Below, in pieces: positions 1 to 10,558 of a stretch of 12,001 nucleotides of DNA (position 1 is its first letter; each line of letters opens with the position of its first letter). The position numbers were made by a program, and so were the translations under genes. The notes beneath the pieces were generated by a model. It searched no databases. It was not told the DNA's origin and saw nothing but the letters and a program-made list of their open reading frames with translations. Where the stretch lies: positions 1 through 12,001 of the IMG/VR virus record IMGVR_UViG_2711768053_000012; one strand, 5' to 3'. This DNA is from a virus (lineage: Duplodnaviria; Heunggongvirae; Uroviricota; Caudoviricetes).

Positions 1-256
1 TGTTGGTTCCCATTGTTTCAAGGTCGATCATCAGGTGGTACCACACTCTGCTGGTGGATGTGATAACGTGATGACCGTTCACCGCAATTAAGGAATCTGC
101 CGTCTCGCCAGTTTCATTATCGCTGGCGTGGTCCTGAGCGCTGCCAGCATTCTCCTTGTGTGGATGTTCAGCGCCTTCCATTTCCTCCGGATCATTTTCC
201 TGAACTTCAACCTGATTCTCTTCATCGAATGTTTCCTGGCATGTTGCGTCGCCCAT
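1..256 (-). CDS. Putative phage exonuclease, N-terminal 85 codons only (gene continues past left edge of window)
   Basis: Own translation of the minus strand: ATG at 256..254, open frame to position 2, giving [15 protein letters not shown]...[17 protein letters not shown]. The MIDLETMGT stretch resembles the Exo I motif of DnaQ-like 3'-5' exonucleases. Absent from the ORF track because there is no stop inside the window. The plus-strand ORF 128..397 is its antisense shadow. Confidence 0.4.
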
Positions 257-397
257 CACCGCACCACAATCAGGGCAGTTGCCGCCACCGATCTGACCGC
301 AGGCGGTGCAGACTTTTTTTGTTTTAACCTCATTACAGATTTAAGGGTGAACAAATCCCTGCCATTGCTGGCATATAAAAATGAAACCGGATATTAA

Positions 398-601
398 TTA
401 CGGTGCTGTTTTAAGTCCTGCCGGGATTTCGTTATTGTCCATGCGAATAACTTTATCAACCGGATAACAGTTGCCGGGAATTTTCTGTTCCGCTGCGGCA
501 GCCATGCATTCTTTCATTGAGTCATGTATACCAATAACAAGATCGACTGGTTCGCCAGTATTAAGAAAAACTGTCAGAACGAGTGCAAATGCTGTATTCA
601 T
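398..601 (-). CDS. Hypothetical small protein (67 aa) with hydrophobic N-terminus
   Basis: Internal Met of track ORF 398..655 chosen as start because of an AAGGA Shine-Dalgarno about 9 nt upstream on the minus strand. Product MNTAFALVLTVFLNTGEP... has a signal-peptide-like or membrane N-terminus. Its start lies 3 nt after the stop of the upstream gene 604..786. The longer start at 655 cannot be excluded. Confidence 0.4.
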   Translation of the reverse strand: MNTAFALVLTVFLNTGEPVDLVIGIHDSMKECMAAAAEQKIPGNCYPVDKVIRMDNNEIPAGLKTAP

Positions 602-603
602 TG

Positions 604-786
604 TCAGCGTCCTTTTTGCATCAGGCGTAAACGGGCCAGCATTGAAACAATGCATATTTGATTTAATAGCTCCCGTTCGTGTTTTCTCTTATTAATGGCA
701 TCTTCAGTAAATACAGGGTTACTGATTCTGACACCAATTTCAAAACAACCTTCAGACGTATTGACGTTTGGTAATAACGTTTCCAT
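604..786 (-). CDS. Hypothetical small early-left protein (60 aa)
   Basis: Track ORF with GAGGA Shine-Dalgarno 7 nt upstream of the ATG at 786 (minus strand); tightly packed with the next gene. No recognisable motif. Confidence 0.45.
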   Translation of the reverse strand: METLLPNVNTSEGCFEIGVRISNPVFTEDAINKRKHERELLNQICIVSMLARLRLMQKGR

Positions 787-803
787 TATCGCGTCCTCAA
801 CAA

Positions 804-967
804 TGAATTTTGTGATGCGGTGCCTGGTGCCTCCAGGTGACGTTAACCAGTTAACAATTAACGCCGGAATACAGGGAAACCAACTCCATAAAACAAATAC
901 GGAGTACCGATCACTTTTTTAACTGTTCCGCGTGCGCTGAGCCGCATTCACCGCATCACAAAATTCA
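804..967. repeat. Perfect 19-bp inverted repeat (TGAATTTTGTGATGCGGTG at 804-822, CACCGCATCACAAAATTCA at 949-967) flanking a 126-bp spacer
   Basis: Read directly from the sequence. Lies in a roughly 560-bp stretch (787-1345) with no convincing ORF on either strand. The spacer contains further palindromic elements (GTTAACCAGTTAAC, CCTGGTGCCTCCAGG). Confidence 0.8.
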
Positions 968-1354
968 CTTTAAAAAGGGCGGACATCAGCCAGCAATGAA
1001 ACTGATGCCGCCAAAAGGTAATCAACATGGGTTGTTGCAGCGGGGTTGTCACTCAGGCGTATGGTCAACCTGACAACCCGGTGTCCTCAACAGGGGGAAG
1101 GAATAACCCCGCCATACGTACCGCCGCGCCATTTCGCGGAGTGCCACAACCGGAAGCGCACGGTCGAATTAAATTTAACGACACCGTACAGTGAGACGAA
1201 CTTCGCCGTGCGCTTTCGCGTTATGCCCTGACTTTTCAGGGATATATCCTTTCAGTAAACTGTCAGTGCCGGATGCTCACCCGTGTCCGGCGCACGCACT
1301 CCACCTGACCCGCGGAGAACTCCTTAATTACCAACCCTCAGGAGGGTGAAATTT

Positions 1355-1546
1355 ATGACACAAGAAGAAAAAATAATGTTTCTTATGCGCCTGGCTGTGG
1401 AAACCTTTAACGCCCATTGCCAGGTGTCCATTTCACCATCTCACGCCATTTCTCTTGCTACCGAGCAAATGGGGGAGATTGACGTCATTTACGATAAATT
1501 TGAGGCATTCCTGGATAAGAAGCTTATGGCAGAGAAGCGTCAATAA
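1355..1546 (+). CDS. Hypothetical small protein (63 aa), plus-strand gene inside a leftward operon
   Basis: ATG at 1355 preceded by a consensus AGGAGG 9 nt upstream; the track start at 1346 is a GTG in the same frame. Product MTQEEKIMFLMRLAVETFNAHCQ... Its 3' end overlaps the 3' end of the convergent minus-strand gene 1524..2129 by 23 nt. Confidence 0.45.
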   Translation: MTQEEKIMFLMRLAVETFNAHCQVSISPSHAISLATEQMGEIDVIYDKFEAFLDKKLMAEKRQ

Positions 1547-2129
1547 TTCTCATTACCCATCGTAAATATACCGGAGTGGGCTTGACGTTGTGTTTTTCAA
1601 GCTCGCTCTTCATTACTTCCTGCAACTTTGAGCTGATAATAAACAAATCAGGTTTATCGTTATTATTTTTATCAGCATCGTCTTTTTTTGTTTTCGACTC
1701 TTGTGGTGAATGCTCGAAAGTAACTTGCAGGGTATTATTTTTAGCGTCCGCAGAGCCTAAAGTATGTGCATATGGATGTGCTATTGTGCGCCCCTGTAAA
1801 TTTGCATCGTTTTCTAAATCTTTTGATTTCAACAGAACATCAGCAAGACTCTGAATCATGCAGAGATAATCAAAAGCAGTTGCCGTTTCTGTTCTGATTG
1901 ATGAAAGAACATGGCCATTCACGCAAACAGAAATTACCCGTTCATTAACATCGCTTTCCTGCTTTTGATTATCAGAACCATATAACCCAGAAAAAGCATT
2001 GCGCACATTACGAACCATATTATCGATGGTTTCTTTTTTAGCGGATGCCGGGTCAATTTCCACCAGGCTATCACTGAGTGTCGTTGCAGCAATTGTCTGG
2101 ATTTCTTTTGGTAAATCTTTAAATTCCAT
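1524..2129 (-). CDS. Hypothetical protein (201 aa), AT-rich, hydrophilic
   Basis: Track ORF with GAGG Shine-Dalgarno 8 nt upstream of the ATG at 2129; follows the upstream gene (stop at 2152) after a 22-nt gap. Lys/Asp/Asn-rich; no recognised domain. Appears AT-richer than neighbours by eye. Confidence 0.6.
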   Translation of the reverse strand: MEFKDLPKEIQTIAATTLSDSLVEIDPASAKKETIDNMVRNVRNAFSGLYGSDNQKQESDVNERVISVCVNGHVLSSIRTETATAFDYLCMIQSLADVLLKSKDLENDANLQGRTIAHPYAHTLGSADAKNNTLQVTFEHSPQESKTKKDDADKNNNDKPDLFIISSKLQEVMKSELEKHNVKPTPVYLRWVMRIIDASLP

Positions 2130-2151
2130 TATTAGCCTCGTTGGTTAGCTA

Positions 2152-2370
2152 TTAACGCGGGTATGTAATCATTCTGGCAACGCTTAATGCCGCTGCCTTT
2201 GTCAGACTGGCGATATCCTGCTCCAGAGCGGACAGATTTTCAGCCTGCTTAGCCCTGGCTTCATTGGCCCATTTCAGATCCTGCGCTGCATTAATTTTCT
2301 GGCGCATCCACTCATAAAGTTCATCATCGGTATAGTCTGGCGCGATGATGACGGGTTCTCGTTTCTGCAT
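2152..2370 (-). CDS. Hypothetical small phage protein (72 aa)
   Basis: Track ORF; same orientation and tight spacing with flanking leftward genes. Product MQKREPVIIAPDYTDDELYEWMRQKINAAQ... Confidence 0.55.
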   Translation of the reverse strand: MQKREPVIIAPDYTDDELYEWMRQKINAAQDLKWANEARAKQAENLSALEQDIASLTKAAALSVARMITYPR

Positions 2371-2400
2371 ACTGAATTCCTCGCGGTGCTGTTTCGCTTA

Positions 2401-2529
2401 TCAGCCGTTAGATTTTGCCGAACTGGAAAGCGCCTGTTCAAATTCGCTGAAGCTGAGGACTTCTTCGCCTTCGGCAAGGCCTTCGAAGTATTCTTCGTAA
2501 GCCTTTTCCATGATTGTGTCGAAATCCAT
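2401..2529 (-). CDS. ydaG: YdaG-like small protein (42 aa)
   Basis: Below the size cutoff of the ORF track; found by my own reverse-complement translation: MDFDTIMEKAYEEYFEGLAEGEEVLSFSEFEQALSSSAKSNG. ATG at 2529, TGA at 2403-2401. Matches my recollection of E. coli Rac prophage YdaG. Start lies 2 nt after the ydaF-like stop. Confidence 0.6.
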   Translation of the reverse strand: MDFDTIMEKAYEEYFEGLAEGEEVLSFSEFEQALSSSAKSNG

Positions 2530-2530
2530 A

Positions 2531-2686
2531 TCACTCACCTGAGTTTCTTTCCAGCCAGCGACGGGCACCATTTTCGGTTTTAAACGTTTTGCTTATGGTA
2601 TACGTCATCGCGGTGAATGTGCCGTCCTGGTTGGGAAACACGCCGTATACCAGAGATTCGTTGTTGCCAAGATCGATAGTATCCAT
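2531..2686 (-). CDS. ydaF: YdaF-like small protein (51 aa, DUF1391-like)
   Basis: Internal Met of track ORF 2531..2764 with GAGG Shine-Dalgarno 5 nt upstream. Product MDTIDLGNNESLVYGVFPNQDGTFTAMTYTISKTFKTENGARRWLERNSGE matches my recollection of Rac prophage YdaF. The 77-aa extended form is less likely. Confidence 0.6.
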   Translation of the reverse strand: MDTIDLGNNESLVYGVFPNQDGTFTAMTYTISKTFKTENGARRWLERNSGE

Positions 2687-2864
2687 GCTGACCTCATTTC
2701 CCCTTAACGCCGGGGTAGCGGAACAAAAACCTGCTGCATAGTTAAAGTTGAACCCTGCCGTCATGTTCTTACGCCTCGGGCTGGCTACTTAACCCCTGAC
2801 CACTGCCTGGTAACTCGAAGTATTGCCCTGCATTCTGTGGGGCGGGGTGGGTTGGTATGCAATA

Positions 2865-2893
2865 AATCTAAAAGTATTTAGTTTTATAGTCAA
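2865..2893 (-). promoter_or_regulatory. pL-like leftward promoter with overlapping operator palindrome
   Basis: On the minus strand: -35 TTGACT (plus 2888-2893), 17-nt spacer, -10 TAGATT (plus 2865-2870). Overlaps the imperfect palindrome AATCTAA-AAGTAT-TTAGTTT at 2865-2884, which has the same 7-6-7 architecture as sites next to the cro-like gene. Confidence 0.45.
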
Positions 2894-2910
2894 GGAAAAT
2901 CTAAATTAAT

Positions 2911-2938
2911 TTAAAAAAAGGTCGGCATAACCGACCTT
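2911..2938 (-). terminator. Rho-independent terminator downstream of the repressor gene
   Basis: Minus-strand hairpin AAGGTCGG-ttatg-CCGACCTT followed by a 7-T run, immediately after the repressor stop at 2960. Confidence 0.6.
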
Positions 2939-2959
2939 AAGTTCAAGAACATGGCAGGG

Positions 2960-3607
2960 TTATAGGTTGAACTGTACACCTTTTGCTACGGCAACAATTT
3001 TACACTCTGGCGTAAGCAAGGATGATTGATAGCGCGGATTGAGAGGGCTTAAATACACAAGTTTTCCATCAATAACTAATTTTTTTATAGTCATAGACGG
3101 TTCATTTGTAAGAGGATCTGGAACTATTACAGCGACGATACTGCCATTTTTATAACTTTCTCCTGGTCTTAGGATCACAGTGGCACCAACTGGGATACTT
3201 GGCGACCCTGAGGGGTTATGCATAGTGTCATCAGGCATTGAAACGGCAAAATCACCTTCCACTACATCAAAGAATGTGGTGATCCTATCGACATTTCCCA
3301 TTGTTTTCTCTCCTTCTAAGATTAGGAAAGAAATCGCGTCACCCCACGAAAAGTAGGGGATCTTGGTGCCTGGATTGCTCTGCACAAAAGATAGTTCAGG
3401 AGACGATACTCCATACAGGAGATAGGACTCAGTAGTTCCTAATGCTTGGGCTAACTTACTTAGAGCTTTGCTGCCGGGTTCGTTTAGATCTTTCTCCCAG
3501 TACCCTATAGTAACCCCAGTCACGCCTGAAAGCTTACCCAGTTCTACTTGGGTGAGTCCCTTATCTTTTCTGAGTTTCTTAAGCCTGATGCCAAGGCTTT
3601 CCATCAT
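2960..3607 (-). CDS. CI-like prophage repressor (N-terminal HTH_XRE, C-terminal S24 LexA-type self-cleaving peptidase)
   Basis: 215 aa. N-terminal HTH (LTQVELGKLSGVTGVTIGYWE). C-terminal S24 signatures: Ser in AVSMPD and Lys in IKKLVIDGKLVYLSPLNPRYQ, the latter closely resembling lambda CI [27 protein letters not shown] Shine-Dalgarno upstream of the ATG at 3607. Divergent from the cro-like gene. Confidence 0.9.
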   Translation of the reverse strand: MMESLGIRLKKLRKDKGLTQVELGKLSGVTGVTIGYWEKDLNEPGSKALSKLAQALGTTESYLLYGVSSPELSFVQSNPGTKIPYFSWGDAISFLILEGEKTMGNVDRITTFFDVVEGDFAVSMPDDTMHNPSGSPSIPVGATVILRPGESYKNGSIVAVIVPDPLTNEPSMTIKKLVIDGKLVYLSPLNPRYQSSLLTPECKIVAVAKGVQFNL

Positions 3608-3623
3608 TTTCTCCCGCGAGTTG

Positions 3624-3690
3624 AATATAAATTATTTTAGATTGCATTGACCTAAAAAAAATTATCCTGTAATCTAAAAATACTTAGATT
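3624..3690. promoter_or_regulatory. Immunity-region operator/promoter (OR/pR-like): two 7-6-7 palindromic operators and a rightward promoter
   Basis: Perfect palindrome AATCTAA-AAATAC-TTAGATT at 3671-3690 and near-perfect AATATAA-ATTATT-TTAGATT at 3624-3643. Candidate pR: -35 TTGACC 3647-3652, 17-nt spacer, weak -10 TAATCT 3670-3675 overlapping the operator. Sits between the divergent repressor and cro-like genes. Confidence 0.5.
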
Positions 3691-3703
3691 TTAGGAGAGT
3701 GAA

Positions 3704-3931
3704 ATGCGAGTTGATGAACTTGTTCAGTTTTTTGGCTCTGTTCAGAGGGTCGCTGATTTTTATGGGATAACCCGCGAAGCTATTTACATGTGGCGTAAGC
3801 GCCCCGGTGAAATAGTTCCGAAAGGGAGAGCTGCGGAAGCTGCTGCATACTCCAAGGGAAAATTATCTTTGAACCCAGAGCTTTACAAAAAGAAGGATAC
3901 CACTCAGAGCGAAAGGAAGAGTGATTCATGA
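3704..3931 (+). CDS. Cro-like HTH regulator (75 aa)
   Basis: GGAGAG Shine-Dalgarno 6 nt upstream. The motif ELVQFFGSVQRVADFYGITREAIYMWRKRPGEIVP parallels P22 Cro (VIDHFGTQRAVAKALGISDAAVSQWKEVIPE, from memory). First gene rightward of the repressor. Confidence 0.8.
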   Translation: MRVDELVQFFGSVQRVADFYGITREAIYMWRKRPGEIVPKGRAAEAAAYSKGKLSLNPELYKKKDTTQSERKSDS

Positions 3932-4353
3932 AAATCAAGCATGAGCACATCCGCATGGCGATGAATGCCTGGGCGCATCCGGATGGTGAAAAAGTTCCGG
4001 CAGCTGAAATAACCCGGGCTTATTTTGAGCTGGGTATGACGTTCCCGGAACTGTATGACGACAGCCATCCGGAAGCCCTGGCTCGCAATACTCAGAAAAT
4101 TTTCCGCTGGGTGGAGAAAGACACCCCTGATGCGGTTAAAAAAATTCAGGCGTTGTTACCAGCGATCGAAAAAGCAATGCCACCTCTGCTGGTGGCCCGA
4201 ATGCGCAGCCACAGTTCAGCCTATTTTCGGGAGCTGGTGGAGACGCGGGAACGACTGGTGAGAGATGCTGATGATTTTGTCGCAGTGGCGATCGCTGGTT
4301 TCAATCAGATGAATCGTGGTGGTCCGGCGGGAAATGCCCTGGTGATGCACTAA
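3928..4353 (+). CDS. ydaT: YdaT-like protein (CII functional analogue family), 141 aa
   Basis: Start overlaps the cro-like stop (ATGA). N-terminus MKIKHEHI and C-terminal ...VMH match my recollection of Rac/CP-933P YdaT; it occupies the cII position after cro. AGGAAGAG Shine-Dalgarno upstream. Confidence 0.6.
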   Translation: MKIKHEHIRMAMNAWAHPDGEKVPAAEITRAYFELGMTFPELYDDSHPEALARNTQKIFRWVEKDTPDAVKKIQALLPAIEKAMPPLLVARMRSHSSAYFRELVETRERLVRDADDFVAVAIAGFNQMNRGGPAGNALVMH

Positions 4354-4376
4354 AAGCACGGTGTTCGGAGTTTTTT

Positions 4377-5324
4377 ATGAGCAGCAAGCTTCATGGTCTT
4401 GTCTGGGAAGGGTGCGCCTTCACCGGCATGATCTTATCCAGGGTGGCAGTAATGGCTCGCCTTGCAGATTACAGCAATGACGAAGGTGTGTCATGGCCTG
4501 CAGTGGAGACCATTCGTCGTCAGATTGGGGCAAAGAGTGAATCAACGGTTAAAGCTGCGATAGCGGAACTGGAAAAGAACGGCTGGCTGACGAAGGAGGA
4601 ACGTAAGGTCGGTGGGCGTAATGTAAGCAATATCTACCGCCTTAATGTGGAAAAACTCGAAGCAGCAGCAGCGGCGGCGCGTGAGGCATATAAACCGAAA
4701 AGAAAAATTAGCCAGGCAAAAAATGACCCGTCAAATATTGCCCCCTCAACGGTTGACCCCTCAAATTTTGATGGATCAACCATTGATAAAAAACAGTCGG
4801 ATAGGGGGGCGATGGTTGGCCCCGATCCGTCAGTATTAAAACCTGATCCGTCAGATAAAAGATCTTTTCGTCCGGACGCTTCGCAACCGGACCCGCAGAC
4901 GGCTGAACAGGATTTTTTAACCCGACACCCTGACGCGGTTGTGTTCAGTGCGAAAAAACGCCAGTGGGGCAGCCAGGAAGATTTGGCGTGTGCGCAGTGG
5001 ATCTGGGGACGAATCGTGAGTCTTTACGAGCAGGCTGCCAGCGATGATGGCGAAATCATGCGACCGAAAGAACCCAACTGGACTGCATGGGCCAATGATG
5101 TGCGCACAATGCGGATGCTGGATGGCAGAACTCACAGACAAATTTGCGAAATGTTTGGTCGGGTACAGCGGGATCCATTCTGGGTAAAAAACGTCATGAG
5201 CCCGTCAAAGCTTCGCGAAAAATGGGATGAGCTGGTTATTCGTCTGGGGCGTTCGCCTGTACAGCGTTGCGTGAATCACATTTCTGAACCGGATACCGAA
5301 ATTCCGCCGGGCTTCAGGGGGTAA
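4377..5324 (+). CDS. Phage replication initiation protein (N-terminal HTH DNA-binding domain, low-complexity linker, C-terminal domain; lambda O-like organisation)
   Basis: 315 aa. N-terminal region LSRVAVMARLADYSNDEGVSWPAVETIRRQIGAKSESTVKAAIAELEKNGWL is typical of phage replication-initiator HTH domains. The linker DPSNIAPSTVDPSNFDGS...PDPSVLKPDPSDK is encoded by iteron-like DNA repeats. Sits after the cro/cII-like genes. Confidence 0.7.
   Translation: MSSKLHGLVWEGCAFTGMILSRVAVMARLADYSNDEGVSWPAVETIRRQIGAKSESTVKAAIAELEKNGWLTKEERKVGGRNVSNIYRLNVEKLEAAAAAAREAYKPKRKISQAKNDPSNIAPSTVDPSNFDGSTIDKKQSDRGAMVGPDPSVLKPDPSDKRSFRPDASQPDPQTAEQDFLTRHPDAVVFSAKKRQWGSQEDLACAQWIWGRIVSLYEQAASDDGEIMRPKEPNWTAWANDVRTMRMLDGRTHRQICEMFGRVQRDPFWVKNVMSPSKLREKWDELVIRLGRSPVQRCVNHISEPDTEIPPGFRG
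4725..4905 (+). repeat. Iteron-like direct repeats (candidate replication origin) inside the replication initiator gene
   Basis: GACCCGTCAAATATTG (4725-4740), GACCCCTCAAATTTTG (4755-4770), GATCCGTCAGTATTAAA (4824-4840), GATCCGTCAGATAAAA (4845-4860), plus degenerate copies near 4741-4750 and 4890-4899. Consensus GAYCCNTCA followed by an A/T-rich tail. Confidence 0.55.
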
Positions 5325-5366
5325 GTGTTGATTTGAGGTTATGAAGTTATTTTCTCAGGAGAGTTT

Positions 5367-5768
5367 ATGGGGACTATTTATACCGAAGAACAGCGGGAAA
5401 GATTACAGCGTCATATCGTTGACCTTGTGCGTAAAAACGGGCGTATGACAATGCCACAACTGGCATCGGCAACATATGCTTCACATGATTCCATTCGCCG
5501 GTACCTGAAGATGCTGGTGAGCGAGGGCGAAGTGTATGTTGTCAGCGGAAAAGGGGTATTCCTTTCAGAGAGGGTTTACCGTGAATGGCTGGCAAGTTCG
5601 GCAAGAAAAGCAAGGGTTATCCGCAAACCAGCACAAAAACAGGGTAAGGCAGGAGCACAACCCTATGACCGGCACCAGAACATAATTTGCCGTGAGTGCC
5701 GGAAGAGTGAAGTTATGCAGCGTGTACTGGCGTTCTATCAGGGAGATTTTCAGGAGGTGATGGAGTGA
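5367..5768 (+). CDS. Hypothetical phage protein with probable winged-helix DNA-binding N-terminus (133 aa)
   Basis: AGGAGA Shine-Dalgarno 5 nt upstream of ATG. The segment NGRMTMPQLASATYASHDSIRRYLKMLVSEGEV is wHTH-like; basic C-terminal tail. No helicase-loader features. Confidence 0.6.
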   Translation: MGTIYTEEQRERLQRHIVDLVRKNGRMTMPQLASATYASHDSIRRYLKMLVSEGEVYVVSGKGVFLSERVYREWLASSARKARVIRKPAQKQGKAGAQPYDRHQNIICRECRKSEVMQRVLAFYQGDFQEVME

Positions 5769-6070
5769 GGGTGAGGGTTTATATCGCCGGTCCGATGACC
5801 GGGTATAAAAATTTCAACCGTGAGGCGTTCCACAAGGCGGAAGAGGAACTGAAACGGGAAGGGCATACAGTCTTAAACCCAGCAGTACTTCCGGACGGAC
5901 TGACGCAGCCACACTATATGGATATTTGCATGGCAATGATTCGTTGTGTGGATGCGATTTACATGCTGAAAGGCTGGCAGCGGTCAGCAGGTGCTAAGGC
6001 AGAACTGGCACTGGCGGAGAAGCTGGGGCATGCAGTTATTTTTCAGGAGGCAACCAGTGAGCAACATTAA
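5765..6070 (+). CDS. DUF4406-like protein (nucleoside 2-deoxyribosyltransferase-like fold), 101 aa
   Basis: GTG start at 5765 overlapping the upstream stop, AGGAGG 7 nt upstream. N-terminal VYIAGPMTGYKNFNREAFHKAEEELKREGHTVLNP matches my recollection of the DUF4406 signature (YIAGPMTG...NP). Confidence 0.65.
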   Translation: MRVRVYIAGPMTGYKNFNREAFHKAEEELKREGHTVLNPAVLPDGLTQPHYMDICMAMIRCVDAIYMLKGWQRSAGAKAELALAEKLGHAVIFQEATSEQH

Positions 6071-6611
6071 TTACCAGGCACTGCGAATGGCGGCAGAAAA
6101 TGCAACCCCTGGCGAATGGTGTTCTGATGATTATGGGGTAATTGCCGATGCCGGACTGAACGCAAATTACTACATAGCATCATGCTCAGGACCAGATAAT
6201 CGCGCCAATAAGCGATTCATAGCGGCAGCCAATCCGGCTACCGTGCTGGCAGTGCTTGATGAACGGGGAGCCCAAAGCAAACGCATTGCAGAGCTGGAAG
6301 CTAATCTTGTGGCGCTGGCGGCGGAGAATGCAGGGCTGAATAAATTTATCGCACAGAGTTGCTACGTGTTTGATGGCGAGCAGGATGAAATATCTGATGC
6401 GTATATCTGCGCAAGAGACGGAGGTATGCCGCAAACCACGGCTACAGATGCTCTCCTGGCTGATGTACGGGCGGTGGCGTTTGACGAACTTCGCGCGGCG
6501 TTTGTCAGGCACGCAAAAGTTGCAGGACTGGATGATGCCGATACCGTAACGCTTAAGGAAGTGACAGAAGCATTGTTGCATTGTGCGGAACAGATTCGCT
6601 CGCCTGAATAA
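6057..6611 (+). CDS. Ead/Ea22-like phage protein
   Basis: The track ORF starts at 5991 inside the previous gene. I prefer the in-frame GTG at 6057 (AGGAGG 6045-6050, 6 nt upstream); an ATG at about 6090 is an alternative. The N-terminal motif INYQALRMAAENATPGEW resembles the conserved start of Ead/Ea22-like proteins as I recall them. Confidence 0.6.
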   Translation: MSNINYQALRMAAENATPGEWCSDDYGVIADAGLNANYYIASCSGPDNRANKRFIAAANPATVLAVLDERGAQSKRIAELEANLVALAAENAGLNKFIAQSCYVFDGEQDEISDAYICARDGGMPQTTATDALLADVRAVAFDELRAAFVRHAKVAGLDDADTVTLKEVTEALLHCAEQIRSPE

Positions 6612-6705
6612 TTAAATTTAGTGTTGCAAATAAAATTTAATCCTTAACCGGAGGGATTCCTACACCCTCAGAACATCAGGAGGCCGCCCGAAAGGGCGGT
6701 AATGA

Positions 6706-6924
6706 ATGGTCACATTATTCAGAAAAAAATATCCACGAAAGAGTAGAACAACAGAATTCCTGTTTCTCATTCTGTTTATCGTGTTAATGATACCGATATC
6801 CCCGCTAATTTTTGTCTGGGCAATCGGGAAAATAATTGAGCCAGTTATTGAATTGTATAACGACGTGGTATGGGCGTCGTTCAACACACTGCACAATAAA
6901 ATTAATCCGTATAAGGAGAACTGA
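6706..6924 (+). CDS. Hypothetical small membrane protein (72 aa; basic N-terminus plus one transmembrane helix)
   Basis: Track ORF. Product MVTLFRKKYPRKSRTTEFLFLILFIVLMIPISPLIFVWAIGK... Stop at 6922-6924, 1 nt before the next gene's ATG. Region is AT-rich by eye. An AGGAGG at 6678-6683 is separated from the ATG by a GNRA-loop hairpin. Confidence 0.5.
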   Translation: MVTLFRKKYPRKSRTTEFLFLILFIVLMIPISPLIFVWAIGKIIEPVIELYNDVVWASFNTLHNKINPYKEN

Positions 6925-6925
6925 T

Positions 6926-7444
6926 ATGACCACTATTACCAGAGAAAACGCGGAGATTAAATCATTCATCACTGGTTTCCTGAGCGACCCGGCGCACGAT
7001 ATCCAATCTTCAGACAGCCTGCTTGCCAATGTGTTTCGTATCGCACTGGCGTCACTGGAAGCAGAGCCAGTGGCGTGGAAGGCAACCTTCACGCAAATTG
7101 ACAATGAATATAATACGTTCACTGCTCTGTATTCTGACAAAGCAGAAGTCGAACGGTGGGTGCGACTGCATGAAATAGGTGACTTTCGGGCAGAAATAAC
7201 ACCGCTTTACGCAGCGCCGTCAGCGCCGGTAGCTCCAGATGGTTGGATAAGCTGTAGTGAGCGAATGCCAAAAGATGGTCAGCACGTAATTATTTTATGT
7301 GATGGCGCATTCGTTCTTTATGCGCAATATCGGGACGGTGAGTTTTTTGATGTCGTCCGCAATGGTGAGGAATTCTTCGAAACGCAGAGCCGCAATGTAA
7401 CCCACTGGATACTGCTACCGGAGCCGCCGCAGGAGGTGAACTGA
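6926..7444 (+). CDS. Phage protein with C-terminal DUF551-like domain (172 aa)
   Basis: The track ORF starts at 6836 inside the previous gene; ATG at 6926 has an AAGGAGA Shine-Dalgarno 6 nt upstream. C-terminal ...THWILLPEPPQEV matches my recollection of the DUF551 C-terminal motif. Confidence 0.65.
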   Translation: MTTITRENAEIKSFITGFLSDPAHDIQSSDSLLANVFRIALASLEAEPVAWKATFTQIDNEYNTFTALYSDKAEVERWVRLHEIGDFRAEITPLYAAPSAPVAPDGWISCSERMPKDGQHVIILCDGAFVLYAQYRDGEFFDVVRNGEEFFETQSRNVTHWILLPEPPQEVN

Positions 7445-7836
7445 TGAATGAAGGCGACAATGTTATCACCCTGGTGCAGCCAAAATCAGAGGAGGAAGGG
7501 CTCCTTAACGTTGTGATAACCGACAGAAAAAGCGGCGAGCAAAAATACTGTCAGCATATCCGTACAACAATTTCAGAAGTGAAGCGTACGATTACCTGCA
7601 ACCGATGCGGATTGGCTTTAGAACCGTTCGAACTTGTTCTCGACCGTGCGAGAAACGGTGAAAACATCGTGTCAGAGATTAAATCACTCTATGCAAAGCG
7701 GGATGCTCTTCGTGAAGCTGTGGCAAAACTTGAACGTGAAGAGAAAAACGCCAAAGCCCGGTTGCGAGCAGCCAGGACTGCAATACTGTATGCGGAAAAT
7801 GACCTTAAAAATATTGGGCAGGAGGTGAATCGATGA
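7444..7836 (+). CDS. Hypothetical phage protein (130 aa) with Cys pair and C-terminal coiled-coil-like region
   Basis: ATG overlaps the upstream stop (TGATG), AGGAGG 7 nt upstream. CQH...C...CNRC residues and a heptad-like charged C-terminus (AKRDALREAVAKLEREEKNAKARLRAAR). Confidence 0.65.
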   Translation: MNEGDNVITLVQPKSEEEGLLNVVITDRKSGEQKYCQHIRTTISEVKRTITCNRCGLALEPFELVLDRARNGENIVSEIKSLYAKRDALREAVAKLEREEKNAKARLRAARTAILYAENDLKNIGQEVNR

Positions 7837-7916
7837 CCTGGCCTGAGGCATTTACTACGGTAGGAATTGCGATGGCGGTGGCGCTGGTGGTGTATTCGAT
7901 TTGCCGCTGGGGATAA
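7833..7916 (+). CDS. Small hydrophobic peptide (27 aa), translationally coupled
   Basis: Below the ORF-track cutoff; my own translation is MTWPEAFTTVGIAMAVALVVYSICRWG. ATG overlaps the upstream stop (ATGA), with a consensus AGGAGG (7820-7825) 7 nt upstream. Single predicted transmembrane segment. Confidence 0.45.
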   Translation: MTWPEAFTTVGIAMAVALVVYSICRWG

Positions 7917-8127
7917 AAACGGTTTGCGGGAAAAGGAGAGTTAAGTAGAATTGCTGCGGGTGCTTGAGGCTATCTGCCTCAGGCATGAACACCAAAAGGC
8001 AGATAGAGAAAAGCCCCAGTTAACATTACGCGTCCTGCAAGACGCTTAACATTAATCTGAGGCCCAATCTATGTCTCACAAATGTAGGTTAGCCTCTTAC
8101 GTGCCGAAAGGCAAGGAGAAGCAGGCT

Positions 8128-8283
8128 ATGAAGCAGCAAAAGGCGATGTTAATCGCCCTGATCGTCATCTGTTTAACCGTCATAGTGACGGCACTGGTAA
8201 CGAGGAAAGACCTCTGCGAGGTACGAATCCGAACCGGCCAGACGGAGGTCGCTGTCTTCACAGCTTACGAACCTGAGGAGTAA
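8128..8283 (+). CDS. hokD: Hok/Gef family type I toxin (51 aa)
   Basis: Product MKQQKAMLIALIVICLTVIVTALVTRKDLCEVRIRTGQTEVAVFTAYEPEE matches my recollection of E. coli HokD (RelF) and aligns closely with Gef/Hok. AAGGAGA Shine-Dalgarno 8 nt upstream of the ATG at 8128. The track ORF starts at an upstream in-frame ATG (8071) giving 70 aa. The upstream leader is highly structured and a terminator follows. Confidence 0.85.
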   Translation: MKQQKAMLIALIVICLTVIVTALVTRKDLCEVRIRTGQTEVAVFTAYEPEE

Positions 8284-8351
8284 GAGACCAGGCGGGGGAG
8301 AAATCCCTCGCCACCTCTGATGTGTCAGGCATCCTCAACGCACCCGCACTT

Positions 8352-8376
8352 AACCCGCTTCGGCGGGTTTTTTATT
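8352..8376 (+). terminator. Rho-independent terminator after hok
   Basis: Hairpin AACCCGC-ttcg-GCGGGTT followed by TTTTTTATT. The 21 bp TAACCCGCTTCGGCGGGTTTT (8351-8371) recur identically at 10186-10206. Confidence 0.75.
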
Positions 8377-8421
8377 GGTTGACAAAATTATGAATATGCA
8401 CCAATATCTTGGTTGACAAAA
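8375..8421 (+). promoter_or_regulatory. Tandem 13-bp direct repeats TTGGTTGACAAAA (8375-8387 and 8409-8421) containing a consensus -35 TTGACA; candidate promoter/operator of the cassette
   Basis: Read from the sequence; repeats are 34 bp apart. The first TTGACA (8379-8384) with a 17-nt spacer gives a weak -10 CAATAT (8402-8407), placing the second repeat near the predicted transcription start. Confidence 0.45.
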
Positions 8422-8456
8422 GTCGTTTTTTGCACGGATTAGGCGGAGAAGTGTCT

Positions 8457-9050
8457 ATGCAGAAGCATCCATTCCCTTGGGAGTTCTTTCCTGAGTTAAC
8501 AGAGGATCGTTTAACCATTATAGCTGAGGAGTTGCTCAGGATACAGGATATTACTCATGAGTTATTGTCATCGCCCTATGATGATAATTACACTCGTGGT
8601 GGTTGTACATTTGGGCGTCAGCGGCAGGCGTTGCTACAAATGTGCATACGAAAGACATATGACTGGTTAAGACTACTTAATCCTGGCATGGATCTTACGT
8701 TTTCAATTGGGAATGTCCCTATTCGTTTCTTTACTGATGACGCAGATAACCCCAAGAAACGCGGTTTTTTCAAAAGAAATGATGCTGATCGACTCTTTGA
8801 GTCAGAGGAGACCACTCCAACTATGCATCGCTTTGTGGTTGAAAAGCCTGAATTTGAAGGCGAGGGTGGTAGAGTCATTTTTAATGGCTATAACGTGTTT
8901 GGTGAGATCGTGTCAACTTGGACATATGGTGCGGACCGTGTTGTTATGCTGAACTCTGTCGATGATGTACCTCCAGCACCGGTACCTATCGAACTAGAAC
9001 CTATCAGTGCGTCTAAGACTGAGAAGGAAAAGAAACAAAATAGCAAATAG
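8457..9050 (+). CDS. Hypothetical protein, first gene of the cassette (197 aa from ATG 8457; 213 aa if ATG 8409 is used)
   Basis: Track ORF 8409..9050. I prefer the in-frame ATG at 8457 (GGAG about 10 nt upstream) because the 8409 ATG lies inside the direct-repeat/-35 element. No recognisable catalytic motif; acidic Pro-rich C-terminus and Lys-rich tail. AT-richer than the flanks by eye. Confidence 0.6.
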   Translation: MQKHPFPWEFFPELTEDRLTIIAEELLRIQDITHELLSSPYDDNYTRGGCTFGRQRQALLQMCIRKTYDWLRLLNPGMDLTFSIGNVPIRFFTDDADNPKKRGFFKRNDADRLFESEETTPTMHRFVVEKPEFEGEGGRVIFNGYNVFGEIVSTWTYGADRVVMLNSVDDVPPAPVPIELEPISASKTEKEKKQNSK

Positions 9051-9060
9051 TGGGTGAAAT

Positions 9061-10182
9061 GTGTTTAACGGTACTAATTTAAGACTTGCTCGTCTGTATC
9101 ACGAGCTATCTCTGGAGCAGGTTGCTGAGAAGGTTGAAAAAACACGCCAGTATGTACAGCGACTGGAGTCTGGTTCAGCTACTCCATCCCCAGAGCTTAT
9201 AAATAAATTAGCCGAGGTTTTGCGCGTGAAGCCCGCCTTTTTCGAAGGGCAGGAACATTCTCCTGTTAATGAAGAGATTGTACATTTTCGTAAACGCGCC
9301 TCGACAAGGATGTCAACGAAGCTATCAACACTCGCTAAGGCTGAGTTTTATCGTCGTTTTATTGATGTATTTGAAGATAACCTTAATTTGTCACCTGTTC
9401 GATTTCCTGAATTTCGTGTCCATACACAAGAAGATATCGAGCGAGCGGCAGAAAAATGTCGTATTGAGTGGGGCTTAGGCTTTGGCCCAATTGAAAATAT
9501 GACTCGCCTTGCCGAGAAACTTGGGGCGTTTGTTACTTCATTTGACTCCGTTTCGGATGAAGTAGATGCACTGTCTGTTCCTCTACGAAGGCCTTTTATT
9601 GTTCGAAATACAGCTAAAAATTCACCTTGTAGGCAACGCTTTGATATTGCTCATGAGGTTGCCCATTTGATTCTTCATGAAGGAATTTCTACTGGGGATA
9701 GATTAACTGAATCCCAGGCAAACCGCTTTGCCTCTGCTCTGTTGCTTCCCAGAACGTCGATGGCGAAATATTTTCCAAGACCTGTGGGGGGGAGGATAAA
9801 TTGGCAGGGACTAAGCCAATTTAAGTTGACATGGAAAGTAAGTAAGGCTGCCATTGTTTACAGGGCTCATCAATTAGGACTTTTGACTGATGAGCAGTAC
9901 AGAACTGCATTTATGGGGTTGAAACGGAAAGGGGAAGCTATTGATGAAAAAGAAGATTATCTAATCCCTCATGAGCGTCCTGAGTTATTCCGTCGGGCTT
10001 TATCGTTTTTATTTGAAGAGTTAGGATACGACCCACAGCGTATAGCTGATGAAATGGATATAGAAGTGGACATTTTTTATGAGTTAGTAGGAGATGATCT
10101 TCCTGCGGTTCATGAACTGCCAGGAAGTGGTGATGTTGTTTCACTACAATCTTACCGAACTCTTAGAGGCAAAATTCACTAG
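9061..10182 (+). CDS. Fused HTH_XRE DNA-binding domain plus ImmA/IrrE-family (DUF955/COG2856-type) HExxH zinc metallopeptidase, 373 aa
   Basis: GTG start at 9061, first start after an in-frame stop and 10 nt after the upstream gene's stop. N-terminal HTH (LSLEQVAEKVEKTRQYVQRLESGSATPSPELINKLAEVLRV); HEVAH (HExxH) at about 9652-9666 inside FDIAHEVAHLILHE, typical of ImmA/IrrE peptidases; about 120-aa C-terminal extension. A terminator follows immediately. Confidence 0.8.
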   Translation: MFNGTNLRLARLYHELSLEQVAEKVEKTRQYVQRLESGSATPSPELINKLAEVLRVKPAFFEGQEHSPVNEEIVHFRKRASTRMSTKLSTLAKAEFYRRFIDVFEDNLNLSPVRFPEFRVHTQEDIERAAEKCRIEWGLGFGPIENMTRLAEKLGAFVTSFDSVSDEVDALSVPLRRPFIVRNTAKNSPCRQRFDIAHEVAHLILHEGISTGDRLTESQANRFASALLLPRTSMAKYFPRPVGGRINWQGLSQFKLTWKVSKAAIVYRAHQLGLLTDEQYRTAFMGLKRKGEAIDEKEDYLIPHERPELFRRALSFLFEELGYDPQRIADEMDIEVDIFYELVGDDLPAVHELPGSGDVVSLQSYRTLRGKIH

Positions 10183-10186
10183 GCAT

Positions 10187-10214
10187 AACCCGCTTCGGCG
10201 GGTTTTGTTTTTTC
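10187..10214 (+). terminator. Rho-independent terminator after the cassette (sequence-identical to the hok terminator)
   Basis: Hairpin AACCCGC-ttcg-GCGGGTT followed by TTGTTTTTTCT, beginning 5 nt after the stop at 10182. Confidence 0.75.
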
Positions 10215-10285: not shown

Positions 10286-10558
10286 ATGGCGCACAATACC
10301 AAACATCACAATTCTGATACCGACCTTGCCAGCAGGCACGGGCGGCGTTCTCATACATTCAAATATGACTGGTTCCAGCATGATCCATGCACTGAAGAAC
10401 AGGCCGAATGGCTGATTCAGTGTTACCGCAGGCGCGGATGCGAGGTTAAAAAAGCCCTTAGCCTCGACTACCGACATTGGATAATTTCAGTCAGGCTCCC
10501 TTATTCCGAACGCCCGCCGCGTCCGTCCCGCACATTACAGCAACGGATCTGGAGGTAA
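10286..10558 (+). CDS. Hypothetical protein (90 aa), rem-like by position
   Basis: Track ORF ending 1 nt before the YdfU-like start; weak Shine-Dalgarno. Sits directly upstream of the DUF968 gene, as rem does relative to ydfU in E. coli K-12 Qin (recollection of gene order only, no sequence recognition). Confidence 0.4.
   Translation: MAHNTKHHNSDTDLASRHGRRSHTFKYDWFQHDPCTEEQAEWLIQCYRRRGCEVKKALSLDYRHWIISVRLPYSERPPRPSRTLQQRIWR

What the first reader, a model, noticed from the sequence alone, without database searches (positions are those of the whole stretch)
8375..10214. Two-gene cassette (unknown 197-aa protein plus HTH_XRE/ImmA-IrrE metallopeptidase fusion) inserted between hok and the rem/ydfU-like genes: candidate undescribed defence or abortive-infection module
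Seen in sequence: two co-oriented genes 10 nt apart with their own promoter-like region and terminator, AT-richer than the flanks, in a prophage accessory position. The second gene fuses an XRE-type HTH to an HExxH peptidase of the ImmA/IrrE type; the first has no motif I recognise. Established knowledge: ImmA/IrrE peptidases cleave partner repressors on DNA damage or stress (ImmA/ImmR of ICEBs1, IrrE/DdrO of Deinococcus, CapP/CapH of CBASS), and XRE-COG2856 pairs have been predicted as toxin-antitoxin-like modules. Inference: a self-contained stress-sensing regulator controlling an unknown effector, next to a hok toxin, which would benefit the lysogen rather than the phage. The window also holds a second, independent peptidase switch in the CI-like S24 repressor.
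Basis: partly seen in the sequence, partly recalled or inferred. Interest (0 to 1): 0.85.

Follow-up and report, generated by a model that had tools for sequence, protein, structure and literature searches.

The report
Known RosmerTA toxin–antitoxin prophage cassette
The two genes are real and form a self-contained cassette in a prophage, but it is already described: a RosmerTA-type toxin–antitoxin/defence module whose antitoxin is identical to one studied in E. coli E101, where the module makes the ClpP protease essential.

Summary
A 1,835-bp, AT-richer cassette lies between hok/sok and the DUF968 (ydfU-like) gene of a lambdoid prophage. It consists of a promoter, a 197-aa gene, a 373-aa HTH_XRE + M78 (ImmA/IrrE) peptidase gene 10 nt downstream, and a terminator. 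Only 23 of 5,426 complete E. coli genomes carry it; thousands have the empty site.

It is not undescribed. PADLOC models call the genes RmrT (E 1e-92, full length) and RmrA (E 4e-201), which is the RosmerTA defence family. The window's RmrA is 373/373 identical to WP_000481765.1. That is the "antidote" E101_02644 of the prophage toxin–antitoxin module that Rousset et al. showed makes clpP essential in E. coli E101.

The toxin is unrelated in sequence to the phage-tested RosmerTA toxin of E. coli OLC-716. I found no phage test for this subtype, and its biochemical activity is unknown.

- Two operator-like TTGACAAA-N10-TGCAC units overlap the promoter, and they are conserved in all 26 distinct upstream regions of homologous loci.
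- Homologues recur in the P2 gpA–portal defence hotspot.
- The toxin has only a weak restriction-endonuclease-like fold and no conserved catalytic triad.

Verdict: a real feature, already known, low interest.

The parts
8351..8371 (+). Terminator hairpin of hok and left copy of the 21-bp direct repeat TAACCCGCTTCGGCGGGTTTT. This is the left junction of the insertion; sequence diverges from empty-site prophages at 8372.
   Evidence: 7-bp GC stem, UUCG loop, -14.4 kcal/mol.
8379..8407 (+). Cassette promoter: -35 TTGACA (8379-8384), 17-nt spacer, -10 CAATAT (8402-8407). Inferred start of transcription is near 8414.
   Evidence: in the 22 Enterobacterales-type upstream regions (of 26 distinct ones) the first TTGACA is followed after 17 nt by CA(A/T)(C/T)AT, with A2 and T6 kept. 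The four most divergent loci have other hexamers at that position. The generic scan did not list it (3 of 6 matches in the -10). Function is inferred.
8379..8401 (+). Operator-like unit O1, TTGACAAA-N10-TGCAC, overlapping the -35 and spacer.
   Evidence: present in all 26 distinct upstream regions of homologous loci. There are only two exact matches in the 12-kb window. Binding by the RmrA HTH is inferred, not shown.
8413..8435 (+). Operator-like unit O2, TTGACAAA-N10-TGCAC, 34 bp after O1 and covering the inferred transcription start. Unlike O1, it is not followed by a conserved -10.
8457..9050 (+). rmrT, the toxin (197 aa). It is identical to WP_053272765.1 and differs at 3 residues from WP_001179381.1. 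The conserved motif D42-D-N-Y-T46-R-G holds the position (T46) whose T46S change suppressed toxicity in E. coli E101.
   Evidence: PADLOC RmrT PDLC03929, E 1.2e-92, 1-197/198; phrog_5786.
9061..10182 (+). rmrA, the antitoxin and probable autorepressor (373 aa, GTG start). XRE HTH at residues 7-61 (nt 9079-9243). M78 peptidase at residues 151-269 (nt 9511-9867). HEVAH at nt 9652-9666, and the invariant E217 probably completes the zinc site (inferred from the IrrE family). The remainder is a helical C-terminal domain.
10186..10211 (+). Cassette terminator (hairpin 10187-10204 plus T-run) and right copy of the 21-bp direct repeat (10186-10206). This is the right junction; from here on the sequence matches empty-site prophages.
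   Evidence: -16 kcal/mol, z -5.3; the same hairpin ends the 86%-identical cassette of L025, which sits in a different context.

Best explanation
This is a RosmerTA-type toxin-antitoxin module (rmrT-rmrA). It is carried as a promoter-to-terminator 'moron' in the early-right operon of a lambdoid prophage.

**Shown**
- Gene A belongs to the catalogued RmrT family, and gene B to the RmrA family of HTH + Zn-peptidase antitoxins.
- The RmrA protein is identical to the antidote of the E. coli E101 module.
- The pair is kept together in all 44 untruncated homologous loci.
- The cassette is a rare insertion.

**From the literature, for this same module**
- The upstream protein is the toxic component.
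- It becomes lethal when ClpP is depleted.
- Prophage loss or a T46S change in the toxin relieves the lethality.
- The phenotype transfers to K-12.

**Inferred mechanism**
- RmrA binds through its XRE HTH to two tandem TTGACAAA-N10-TGCAC sites. These overlap the -35 and the transcription start, so RmrA represses its own operon.
- RmrA also neutralises RmrT. Because its HExxH/E site is invariant, it probably does so by proteolysis, and with the help of ClpXP/ClpP rather than by simple sequestration.
- When neutralisation fails, free RmrT arrests or kills the cell. Failure could come from phage infection, from overload or inhibition of Clp proteolysis, or from loss of the prophage.
- The result would be abortive-infection-type protection of the lysogen population and/or prophage maintenance.

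**Unknown**
RmrT's molecular target is unknown. It is a soluble two-helix plus beta-sheet protein with only a weak restriction-endonuclease-like fold and no conserved acidic triad. It may act by binding a target rather than by cleaving nucleic acid.
For: **Family assignment**
- PADLOC RmrT PDLC03929, E 1.2e-92, over 1-197/198; RmrA PDLC03943, E 4e-201.
- All 66 sampled distant relatives of the toxin (19-44% identity) also hit PDLC03929.
- RmrA has HTH_3 + Peptidase_M78.
- H198, E199, H202 and E217, and the HTH residues R29 and Q30, are invariant in 41 sequences of 50-92% identity.

**Identity with the E101 module**
- Window RmrA is 373/373 identical to the CDS annotated WP_000481765.1. That is the accession Rousset et al. 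give for antidote E101_02644.
- Their toxin accession is WP_001179380.1. The toxin at this locus is annotated WP_001179381.1 or WP_001179382.1.

**Linkage and mobility**
- An RmrA orthologue lies 9-61 nt downstream of the toxin in 44 of 46 loci. The other two loci are cut by contig ends.
- The cassette is present in 23 of 5,426 genomes, with exact junctions.
- The same promoter-to-terminator unit occurs in another context in L025.
- 24 of 46 loci lie between gpA and portal in P2-like prophages. Rousset et al. 2022 describe that position as an antiviral hotspot.

**Autoregulation**
- Two TTGACAAA-N10-TGCAC units, 32-34 bp apart, occur in 26 of 26 distinct upstream regions, down to 32% toxin identity.

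**Family precedent**
- The OLC-716 RosmerTA protects against phages, and a ΔrmrA mutant could not be obtained.
- The Kita RmrTA defends against phages.
- Neutralisation in RipAB needs ClpX.
- In the three Pectobacteriaceae strains that carry RosmerTA, rmrA is essential, and clpX is essential only in those strains.
Against: - In the literature held here, no phage-protection assay was found for this toxin subtype.
- The phage-tested toxin (OLC-716) maps to a different model pair, PDLC03935/PDLC03949. It shows no sequence relationship to this toxin (BLASTP E 7; hhalign probability 0.45%).
- Direct neutralisation of this toxin by RmrA, RmrA binding to the repeats, and any peptidase substrate are all untested.
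- The toxin accession of E101 (WP_001179380.1) was not itself recovered in the 11 genomes I inspected. Toxin identity with E101 therefore rests on the identical partner, the same gene order and neighbouring accession numbers.
- Two genomes carry a 1-nt deletion that truncates RmrA at about residue 244 while the toxin stays intact. If that deletion is real, the full-length antitoxin is not always required.
Confidence: 0.85

Rival explanations
1. A pure addiction or stabilisation module. On this reading, the toxin-antitoxin pair only stabilises the prophage (post-segregational killing on loss or excision) and has no anti-phage role.
For: - The only experiments on this exact module show toxicity linked to ClpP depletion, and suppression by prophage excision. 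They do not show phage protection.
- No phage test of this subtype was found.
- The cassette sits beside another killer locus, hok/sok.
Against: - Homologues are concentrated in the P2 gpA-portal hotspot, which holds old, tin and other validated defence systems.
- Two other RosmerTA systems with different toxins do protect against phages.
- The two roles are not mutually exclusive.
Confidence: 0.2
2. An ImmA/ImmR- or IrrE/DdrO-type induction switch of the prophage. On this reading, gene B is an anti-repressor protease or regulator that controls lysogeny or other prophage genes in response to damage, and gene A is merely a co-transcribed accessory gene.
For: - The peptidase fold matches CapP and IrrE, and the HTH matches ImmR, DdrO and CapH.
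- PADLOC capP/capH models match weakly.
Against: - The prophage has its own CI-like repressor with an S24 autopeptidase domain, and a Cro.
- The cassette is absent from the great majority of prophages that share these flanks.
- The same pair occurs in unrelated P2-like phages and in non-phage contexts.
- The conserved operator-like motif occurs only at the cassette's own promoter in this window.
- In E101, the upstream gene is the toxic determinant.
Confidence: 0.03
3. A previously undescribed defence system.
For: Gene A has no Pfam or NCBIfam family, and genome records annotate it as 'hypothetical protein'.
Against: - Full-length matches to the PADLOC RmrT/RmrA models of 2023.
- An identical antitoxin was published as part of the E101 toxin-antitoxin module.
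- Later papers treat the E101 module as RosmerTA.
Confidence: 0.02

Closest known systems
E. coli E101 prophage toxin-antitoxin module E101_02645 / E101_02644 (Rousset et al., bioRxiv 10.1101/2020.05.25.114553; Nat Microbiol 2021)
   Same: - The antitoxin protein is identical (WP_000481765.1 = window RmrA, 373/373).
- Same gene order: toxin first.
- Carried by a prophage.
- The toxin has no predicted domain.
- The T46 position lies in the family's most conserved motif.
   Different: - Nothing demonstrable.
- The E101 toxin accession (WP_001179380.1) was not retrieved, so a few substitutions are possible. The window's toxin already differs at 3 residues from WP_001179381.1.
RosmerTA of E. coli OLC-716 (Millman et al. 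2022), the phage-validated type system
   Same: - Two-gene architecture with the toxin upstream.
- RmrA is an HTH + Zn-peptidase, 31% identical over 311 residues (E 2e-38).
- The antitoxin could not be deleted.
   Different: - The toxin is unrelated in sequence and length: 239 aa against 197 aa.
- It falls under different PADLOC sub-models, PDLC03935/03949 against 03929/03943.
- Phage protection has been shown only for OLC-716.
RipA/RipB (Spr1630/Spr1629) of Streptococcus pneumoniae (PMC12795458)
   Same: - A Rosmer-family pair with an XRE + ImmA-like antitoxin.
- Neutralisation depends on the Clp system (ClpX there, ClpP in E101).
- The NCBIfam 'spr1629 family repressor/antitoxin' model matches window RmrA at E 4e-51, below its cut-off.
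   Different: - The RipA toxin acts on the sliding clamp DnaN and induces competence.
- No relationship between RipA and this RmrT was tested here.
- The host is Gram-positive and the module is chromosomal.
Gordonia phage Kita RmrT(D5)/RmrA (Ernits et al. 2023, PMC10440598)
   Same: An ImmA-protease antitoxin paired with a toxin of no known family. The module is phage-borne and gives narrow anti-phage defence.
   Different: The Kita toxin has a predicted membrane segment and depolarises the membrane. The window's RmrT model is soluble, with no predicted transmembrane helix.
CapH/CapP (CBASS), ImmR/ImmA (ICEBs1) and DdrO/IrrE (Deinococcus) repressor-protease pairs
   Different: - There, the two functions are separate proteins, and the protease cleaves the repressor to induce an operon.
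- Here they are fused in one polypeptide that acts as the antitoxin of an adjacent toxin.
- No cleavage event is known.
PD-λ-2 (Vassallo et al. 2022)
   Same: An E. coli anti-phage system that contains an Xre/IrrE component.
   Different: Its toxin is HigB, and the system layout is different. It is not this module.

Membership tests
RosmerTA (Rosmer) toxin-antitoxin / defence family | Antitoxin RmrA: an N-terminal XRE-type HTH fused to an ImmA/IrrE (M78) Zn-peptidase with an intact HExxH | tested here: met
   - Pfam HTH_3 and Peptidase_M78.
- PADLOC RmrA PDLC03943, E 4e-201, over 1-368/370.
- H198, E199, H202 and E217 invariant.
- Fold matches CapP and IrrE.
RosmerTA (Rosmer) toxin-antitoxin / defence family | An adjacent, co-oriented small gene of variable family (RmrT) forming a conserved two-gene unit with RmrA | tested here: met
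   - 10-nt gap in the window.
- An RmrA orthologue follows the toxin in 44 of 44 untruncated loci.
- PADLOC RmrT PDLC03929, E 1.2e-92, full length.
RosmerTA (Rosmer) toxin-antitoxin / defence family | Toxin homologous to the experimentally validated RmrT of E. coli OLC-716 | tested here: not met
   - BLASTP E 7.
- hhalign probability 0.45%.
- Different PADLOC sub-model.
- The literature defines the family by RmrA with diverse toxins, so this does not exclude membership.
RosmerTA (Rosmer) toxin-antitoxin / defence family | RmrT is toxic and RmrA counteracts it | not testable with these tools
   Literature on the module with the identical antitoxin shows toxin-dependent lethality on clpP knock-down, a T46S suppressor, and transfer of the phenotype to K-12. 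Direct neutralisation by RmrA was not reported there.
RosmerTA (Rosmer) toxin-antitoxin / defence family | Protection against phage infection | not testable with these tools
   - No report for this subtype was found.
- Indirect support only: 24 of 46 homologous loci lie in the P2 gpA-portal antiviral hotspot.
Type II toxin-antitoxin operon | Autoregulated bicistronic operon with operator sites at its own promoter | tested here: inconclusive
   Two conserved TTGACAAA-N10-TGCAC units overlap the promoter in 26 of 26 upstream regions, and the HTH recognition residues are invariant. Binding and repression are not shown.
ImmA/ImmR - IrrE/DdrO - CapP/CapH protease-repressor switch | A separate XRE repressor that is cleaved by the M78 protease to induce a target operon | tested here: not met
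   HTH and peptidase are fused in one 373-aa protein, and no separate small XRE repressor gene lies in the cassette. Cleavage is not testable here.
PD-(D/E)xK restriction-endonuclease-like nucleases (for RmrT) | Alpha/beta core fold with a conserved acidic and lysine catalytic motif | tested here: inconclusive
- Across the wider family, D94, D95 and E129 are poorly conserved, while D42, R54, R90, R125, W124 and W155 are conserved.
- RmrT is therefore not filed as a member.
Phage 'moron' (independent accessory transcription unit) | Own promoter and terminator, deviant base composition, and presence/absence polymorphism between otherwise collinear prophages | tested here: met

The most novel reading that the evidence does not exclude
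The module may act as a guard of cellular Clp proteolysis. On this reading, RmrA (a protease-antitoxin) together with ClpXP/ClpP continuously disposes of RmrT. A phage that inhibits, saturates or redirects ClpXP would then release the toxin and abort infection. That would explain why Clp dependence recurs in E. coli E101, S. pneumoniae RipAB and Pectobacteriaceae, which have unrelated toxins. A second open point is that this RmrT family (about 440 representative clusters, no Pfam family) may have a new, non-nucleolytic mode of toxicity built on a degenerate endonuclease-like fold.
Probability: 0.15. Interest if true: 0.6.

Novelty: already known. Interest (0 to 1): 0.22.

Why it matters
For a genome scan, this finding should be closed as a correct detection of a catalogued system. 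DefenseFinder or PADLOC would label it Rosmer, and the very same antitoxin protein has been studied in E. coli E101.

Some value remains for specialists:
- This subtype has no published phage phenotype and no known toxin target.
- It is one of three unrelated Rosmer-type toxins whose control depends on the Clp system. That makes it a convenient E. coli model for asking how an HTH-metallopeptidase 'antitoxin' works.
- The conserved double operator and the exact cassette boundaries reported here give ready-made constructs for such work.

Tried and rejected
- **Phage database:** a megablast of the cassette against 50,697 phage records found nothing.
- **Toxin against solved structures:** a sequence search with the toxin profile gave no hit even at E 10.
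- **Toxin against Pfam:** no family for the window protein or for 65 distant relatives.
- **Relationship to the validated OLC-716 toxin:** none by BLASTP or profile-profile comparison.
- **Nuclease hypothesis for RmrT:** only weak fold hits, and the putative acidic residues are not conserved in the wider family. Kept only as a lead.
- **AlphaFold-database fold search:** the library was unavailable.
- **A retracted argument about the second TTGACA box:** I first argued that the box in Proteus lies too close to the start codon to be a promoter. That rested on a mis-called start codon in L008. tblastn and the related locus L037 put the start 21 nt downstream, so I withdrew the argument. I replaced it with the observation that the -10 is not conserved after unit 2.
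- **Millman supplementary tables:** I searched for the E. coli strains and IMG genomes that carry this cassette. Nothing was found, but the stored files are truncated.
- **Toxin accession WP_001179380.1:** looked for in 11 of the 23 genomes. Only WP_001179381.1, WP_001179382.1 and WP_053272765.1 were seen.
- **PD-λ-2 of Vassallo et al.:** checked and rejected as the same system, because its toxin is HigB.
- **Generic sigma-70 scan:** it did not list the cassette promoter. The promoter call rests on cross-locus conservation.
Full report
**1. What is in the sequence**

The window is the early region of a lambdoid (Rac/Qin-like) prophage. In order, it holds:
- a CI-like repressor, HTH_3 + Peptidase_S24, at 2960-3607(-);
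- a P22-type Cro and a YdaT-like protein;
- a replication protein, then DUF977, DUF4406, Ead/Ea22, DUF551 and a phrog_1621 protein;
- hok/sok;
- the cassette;
- a 90-aa phrog_1212 ORF, then DUF968 (ydfU-like) and RusA.

Within the finding's coordinates:
- Gene A runs from ATG 8457 to 9050 (197 aa).
- Gene B runs from GTG 9061 to 10182 (373 aa). The two are 10 nt apart.
- Gene B has HTH_3 (residues 7-61) and Peptidase_M78 (151-269), with HEVAH at 198-202.
- Gene A has no Pfam or NCBIfam match.
- The cassette has GC 0.428, against 0.485 and 0.529 in the flanks.
- A GC-rich hairpin plus T-run ends it at 10187-10211.

**2. It is an insertion with exact boundaries**

- Against 5,426 complete E. coli genomes, the cassette occurs in 23. 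In all of them it is at least 99.6% identical and sits at this same site. Many of the carriers bear ETEC-type strain names (TW11681, TW10598, UMNF18, ETEC4090).
- Thousands of genomes have the same hok and DUF968 flanks directly adjacent, or with rem in between.
- Alignment with two empty sites shows identity up to the hok terminator, divergence from 8372, and resumption at the second copy of the terminator.
- The insert is 1,835 bp. It is bounded by a perfect 21-bp direct repeat, TAACCCGCTTCGGCGGGTTTT, at 8351-8371 and 10186-10206.
- An 86%-identical cassette sits in an unrelated context (L025). It shares sequence with the window only from the promoter (about 8377) to just after the same hairpin.
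- The mobile unit is therefore promoter + two genes + terminator, a classical moron. The terminator homology is a plausible recombination point; that is inference.

**3. What it is**

- The PADLOC library identifies gene A as RmrT (PDLC03929, E 1.2e-92, 1-197 of 198 profile positions). It identifies gene B as RmrA (PDLC03943, E 4e-201). These are the two components of RosmerTA.
- RosmerTA was named by Millman et al. [quoted passage not shown]
- Ernits et al. 2023 describe RosmerTA as a family in which diverse toxins are paired with the ImmA-protease antitoxin.
- Rousset et al. give exactly that accession for E101_02644. It is the putative antidote of a prophage toxin-antitoxin module in E. coli E101, whose upstream partner is E101_02645 (WP_001179380.1, 'no predicted domain').
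- At this locus the upstream gene is annotated WP_001179381.1, WP_001179382.1 or WP_053272765.1. The window equals the last and differs at 3 residues from the first.
- I did not see WP_001179380.1 itself, so the toxin's identity with E101 is inferred from the identical partner, the same layout and the neighbouring accessions.

Rousset et al. showed four things about the module:
- clpP is essential in E101 because of it.
- Suppressors had lost the prophage or carried T46S in the toxin.
- Knock-down of the toxin gene partly rescued growth.
- Moving the module to K-12 made clpP knock-down deleterious, unless the toxin carried T46S.

A later preprint treats the E101 toxin as an RmrT. So the cassette is both catalogued and partly characterised.

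**4. How far 'known' goes**

- The phage-validated RosmerTA of E. coli OLC-716 is a different subtype. Its proteins hit PADLOC RmrT PDLC03935 and RmrA PDLC03949.
- Its RmrA is 31% identical to the window's.
- Its 239-aa toxin shows no relationship to the window's toxin by BLASTP or by profile-profile comparison of the two families (probability 0.45%).
- PD-λ-2 of Vassallo et al. pairs an Xre/IrrE component with HigB and is not this system.
- I found no paper that tests this subtype against phages, and none on its toxin's activity.

**5. The toxin family**

- A word-indexed search finds 81 clusters of 197-208 aa, in Enterobacterales and Aeromonas, all annotated as hypothetical.
- An exhaustive profile search finds 438 representative clusters at E ≤ 0.001. 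Nearly all are stand-alone proteins of about 200 aa.
- All 66 sampled members hit PDLC03929, and none hits Pfam.
- In the close family, D42, Y45, R54, R90, F92, D94, D95, P99, D111, L113, R125, F126 and W155 are invariant.
- In the wide family, only D42, G48, R54, R90, P99, W124, R125 and W155 stay well conserved.
- T46, the E101 suppressor position, lies in the D-D-N-Y-T-R-G motif. Serine occurs there naturally in some homologues, so T46S is probably a hypomorph.
- The AlphaFold model (pLDDT 82, pTM 0.74) has two long helices followed by six strands and a disordered tail. It has no membrane segment.
- The acidic residues a PD-(D/E)xK enzyme would need are not conserved. I therefore do not call the toxin a nuclease. 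A binding-type toxin, as with RipA on DnaN, is equally possible.

**6. The antitoxin**

- 968 clusters match RmrA at E ≤ 1e-20.
- In 41 sequences of 50-92% identity, H198, E199, H202 and E217 are invariant. These are the zinc and catalytic site by analogy with IrrE. The HTH residues R29 and Q30 are also invariant.
- The model is confident and compact (pLDDT 91, pTM 0.87).
- RmrA is more conserved than RmrT in every locus pair, for example 70-76% against 55-62%.

**7. Linkage, context and regulation**

- In 46 loci fetched through the toxin, an RmrA orthologue follows within 9-61 nt in 44. The other two loci end at the contig edge.
- By context:
  - 10 loci are the lambdoid hok|DUF968 site.
  - 24 lie between the replication gene gpA and the portal/terminase genes of P2-like prophages, in Proteus, Xenorhabdus, E. 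coli and others.
  - 12 are elsewhere, including an Aeromonas island with helicase, HNH and methyltransferase genes.
- Rousset et al. 2022 describe the gpA-gpQ interval of P2-like phages as an antiviral hotspot that holds old and tin. This is independent, though indirect, support for a defence role.
- Upstream of the toxin gene, all 26 distinct regions carry two units of TTGACAAA-N10-TGCAC, 32-34 bp apart.
- The first unit is followed by CA(A/T)(C/T)AT at the correct distance for a -10 in all but the four most divergent loci. The second is not.
- In the window these units are at 8379-8401 and 8413-8435. They are the only exact matches in 12 kb.
- I read the first unit as promoter plus operator, and the second as an operator over the transcription start. 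Their conservation, together with the invariant HTH recognition residues, argues for autorepression by RmrA. That is inferred, not shown.

**8. Most likely mechanism**

RmrA represses its own operon and keeps RmrT harmless. It probably uses its conserved peptidase site, and it depends on ClpP/ClpX.

The Clp dependence rests on three published observations:
- clpP in E. coli E101;
- clpX in pneumococcal RipAB, where overexpressing the antitoxin makes ClpX dispensable;
- in the three Pectobacteriaceae strains that carry RosmerTA, rmrA is essential, and clpX is essential only in those strains.

When this control fails, RmrT stops growth. Whether phage infection is the natural trigger for this subtype is untested.

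Rivals:
- The module only stabilises the prophage (possible, and not exclusive).
- It is an ImmA/ImmR-like induction switch. This is unlikely, because the prophage has its own S24 repressor, the cassette is dispensable and promiscuous, and the operators are only at its own promoter.
- It is undescribed (refuted).

**9. Verdict**

Novelty: already known.

The remaining open questions are the toxin's target, the phage spectrum, the role of the peptidase and the link to Clp. They are real, but they belong to an already named family.

Noticed in passing
window 9780-9790 (G-run in rmrA); L053 (ETEC4090) 962-2082: In ETEC4090, a 1-nt deletion in the run of G's at window 9786 splits rmrA into 245-aa and 118-aa ORFs while the toxin gene stays intact. 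Strain 2011EL-1370-2 has the same 1,785-nt match length and probably the same deletion. This is either a homopolymer sequencing error or a natural C-terminally truncated antitoxin that still suffices.
   Followed up: partly
window 8351-8371 and 10186-10206; L025 5733-5750: The hok terminator and the cassette's own terminator are the same 21-bp sequence. The same hairpin ends a related cassette in an unrelated context. Identical terminators may serve as recombination points for moron exchange.
   Followed up: partly
window 7958-8283: A complete hok/sok type I toxin-antitoxin locus lies immediately upstream of the cassette: Rfam sok at 121.7 bits (7958-8133) and the 51-aa Hok ORF at 8128-8283. 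Several cassette-carrying genomes annotate this hok as a partial pseudogene (UMNF18, 99-3165, ETEC4090).
   Followed up: partly
window 3928-4353 (+): The gene in the cII position, just after cro, carries a YdaT_toxin domain (Pfam E 1e-9). This is the Rac-type cro-ydaT arrangement.
   Followed up: no
window 1524-2129 (-): A 201-aa ORF with no Pfam match lies in an AT-rich stretch (GC 0.38-0.41) about 0.8 kb beyond the end of the CI-like repressor gene. Lambdoid phages often carry exclusion or accessory genes in this kind of position.
   Followed up: no
L004-L006 (Aeromonas), 1-8609: The Aeromonas homologue of the cassette sits between a DNA_pol_A-like gene cluster on one side and an HNH protein, a methyltransferase and a 1,732-aa DEAD/UvrD helicase on the other. 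This may be another defence island or mobile element.
   Followed up: no
L011-L013, 3586-4864: In E. coli P2-like prophages, the homologous cassette lies directly after a ParM/StbA-like and Plasmid_stab_B pair, inside the gpA-portal hotspot.
   Followed up: no
protein searches: RmrA-like proteins of this subfamily are much more numerous (968 clusters at E ≤ 1e-20) than the toxin's close relatives (81 clusters). RmrA is also consistently more conserved than RmrT within loci. Both points fit partner swapping and faster toxin evolution.
   Followed up: partly
window 10286-10558 (+): The 90-aa ORF between the cassette and DUF968 is phrog_1212 (unknown function), not Rem. In Qin-type prophages, rem is an additional gene at this same variable site.
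   Followed up: partly
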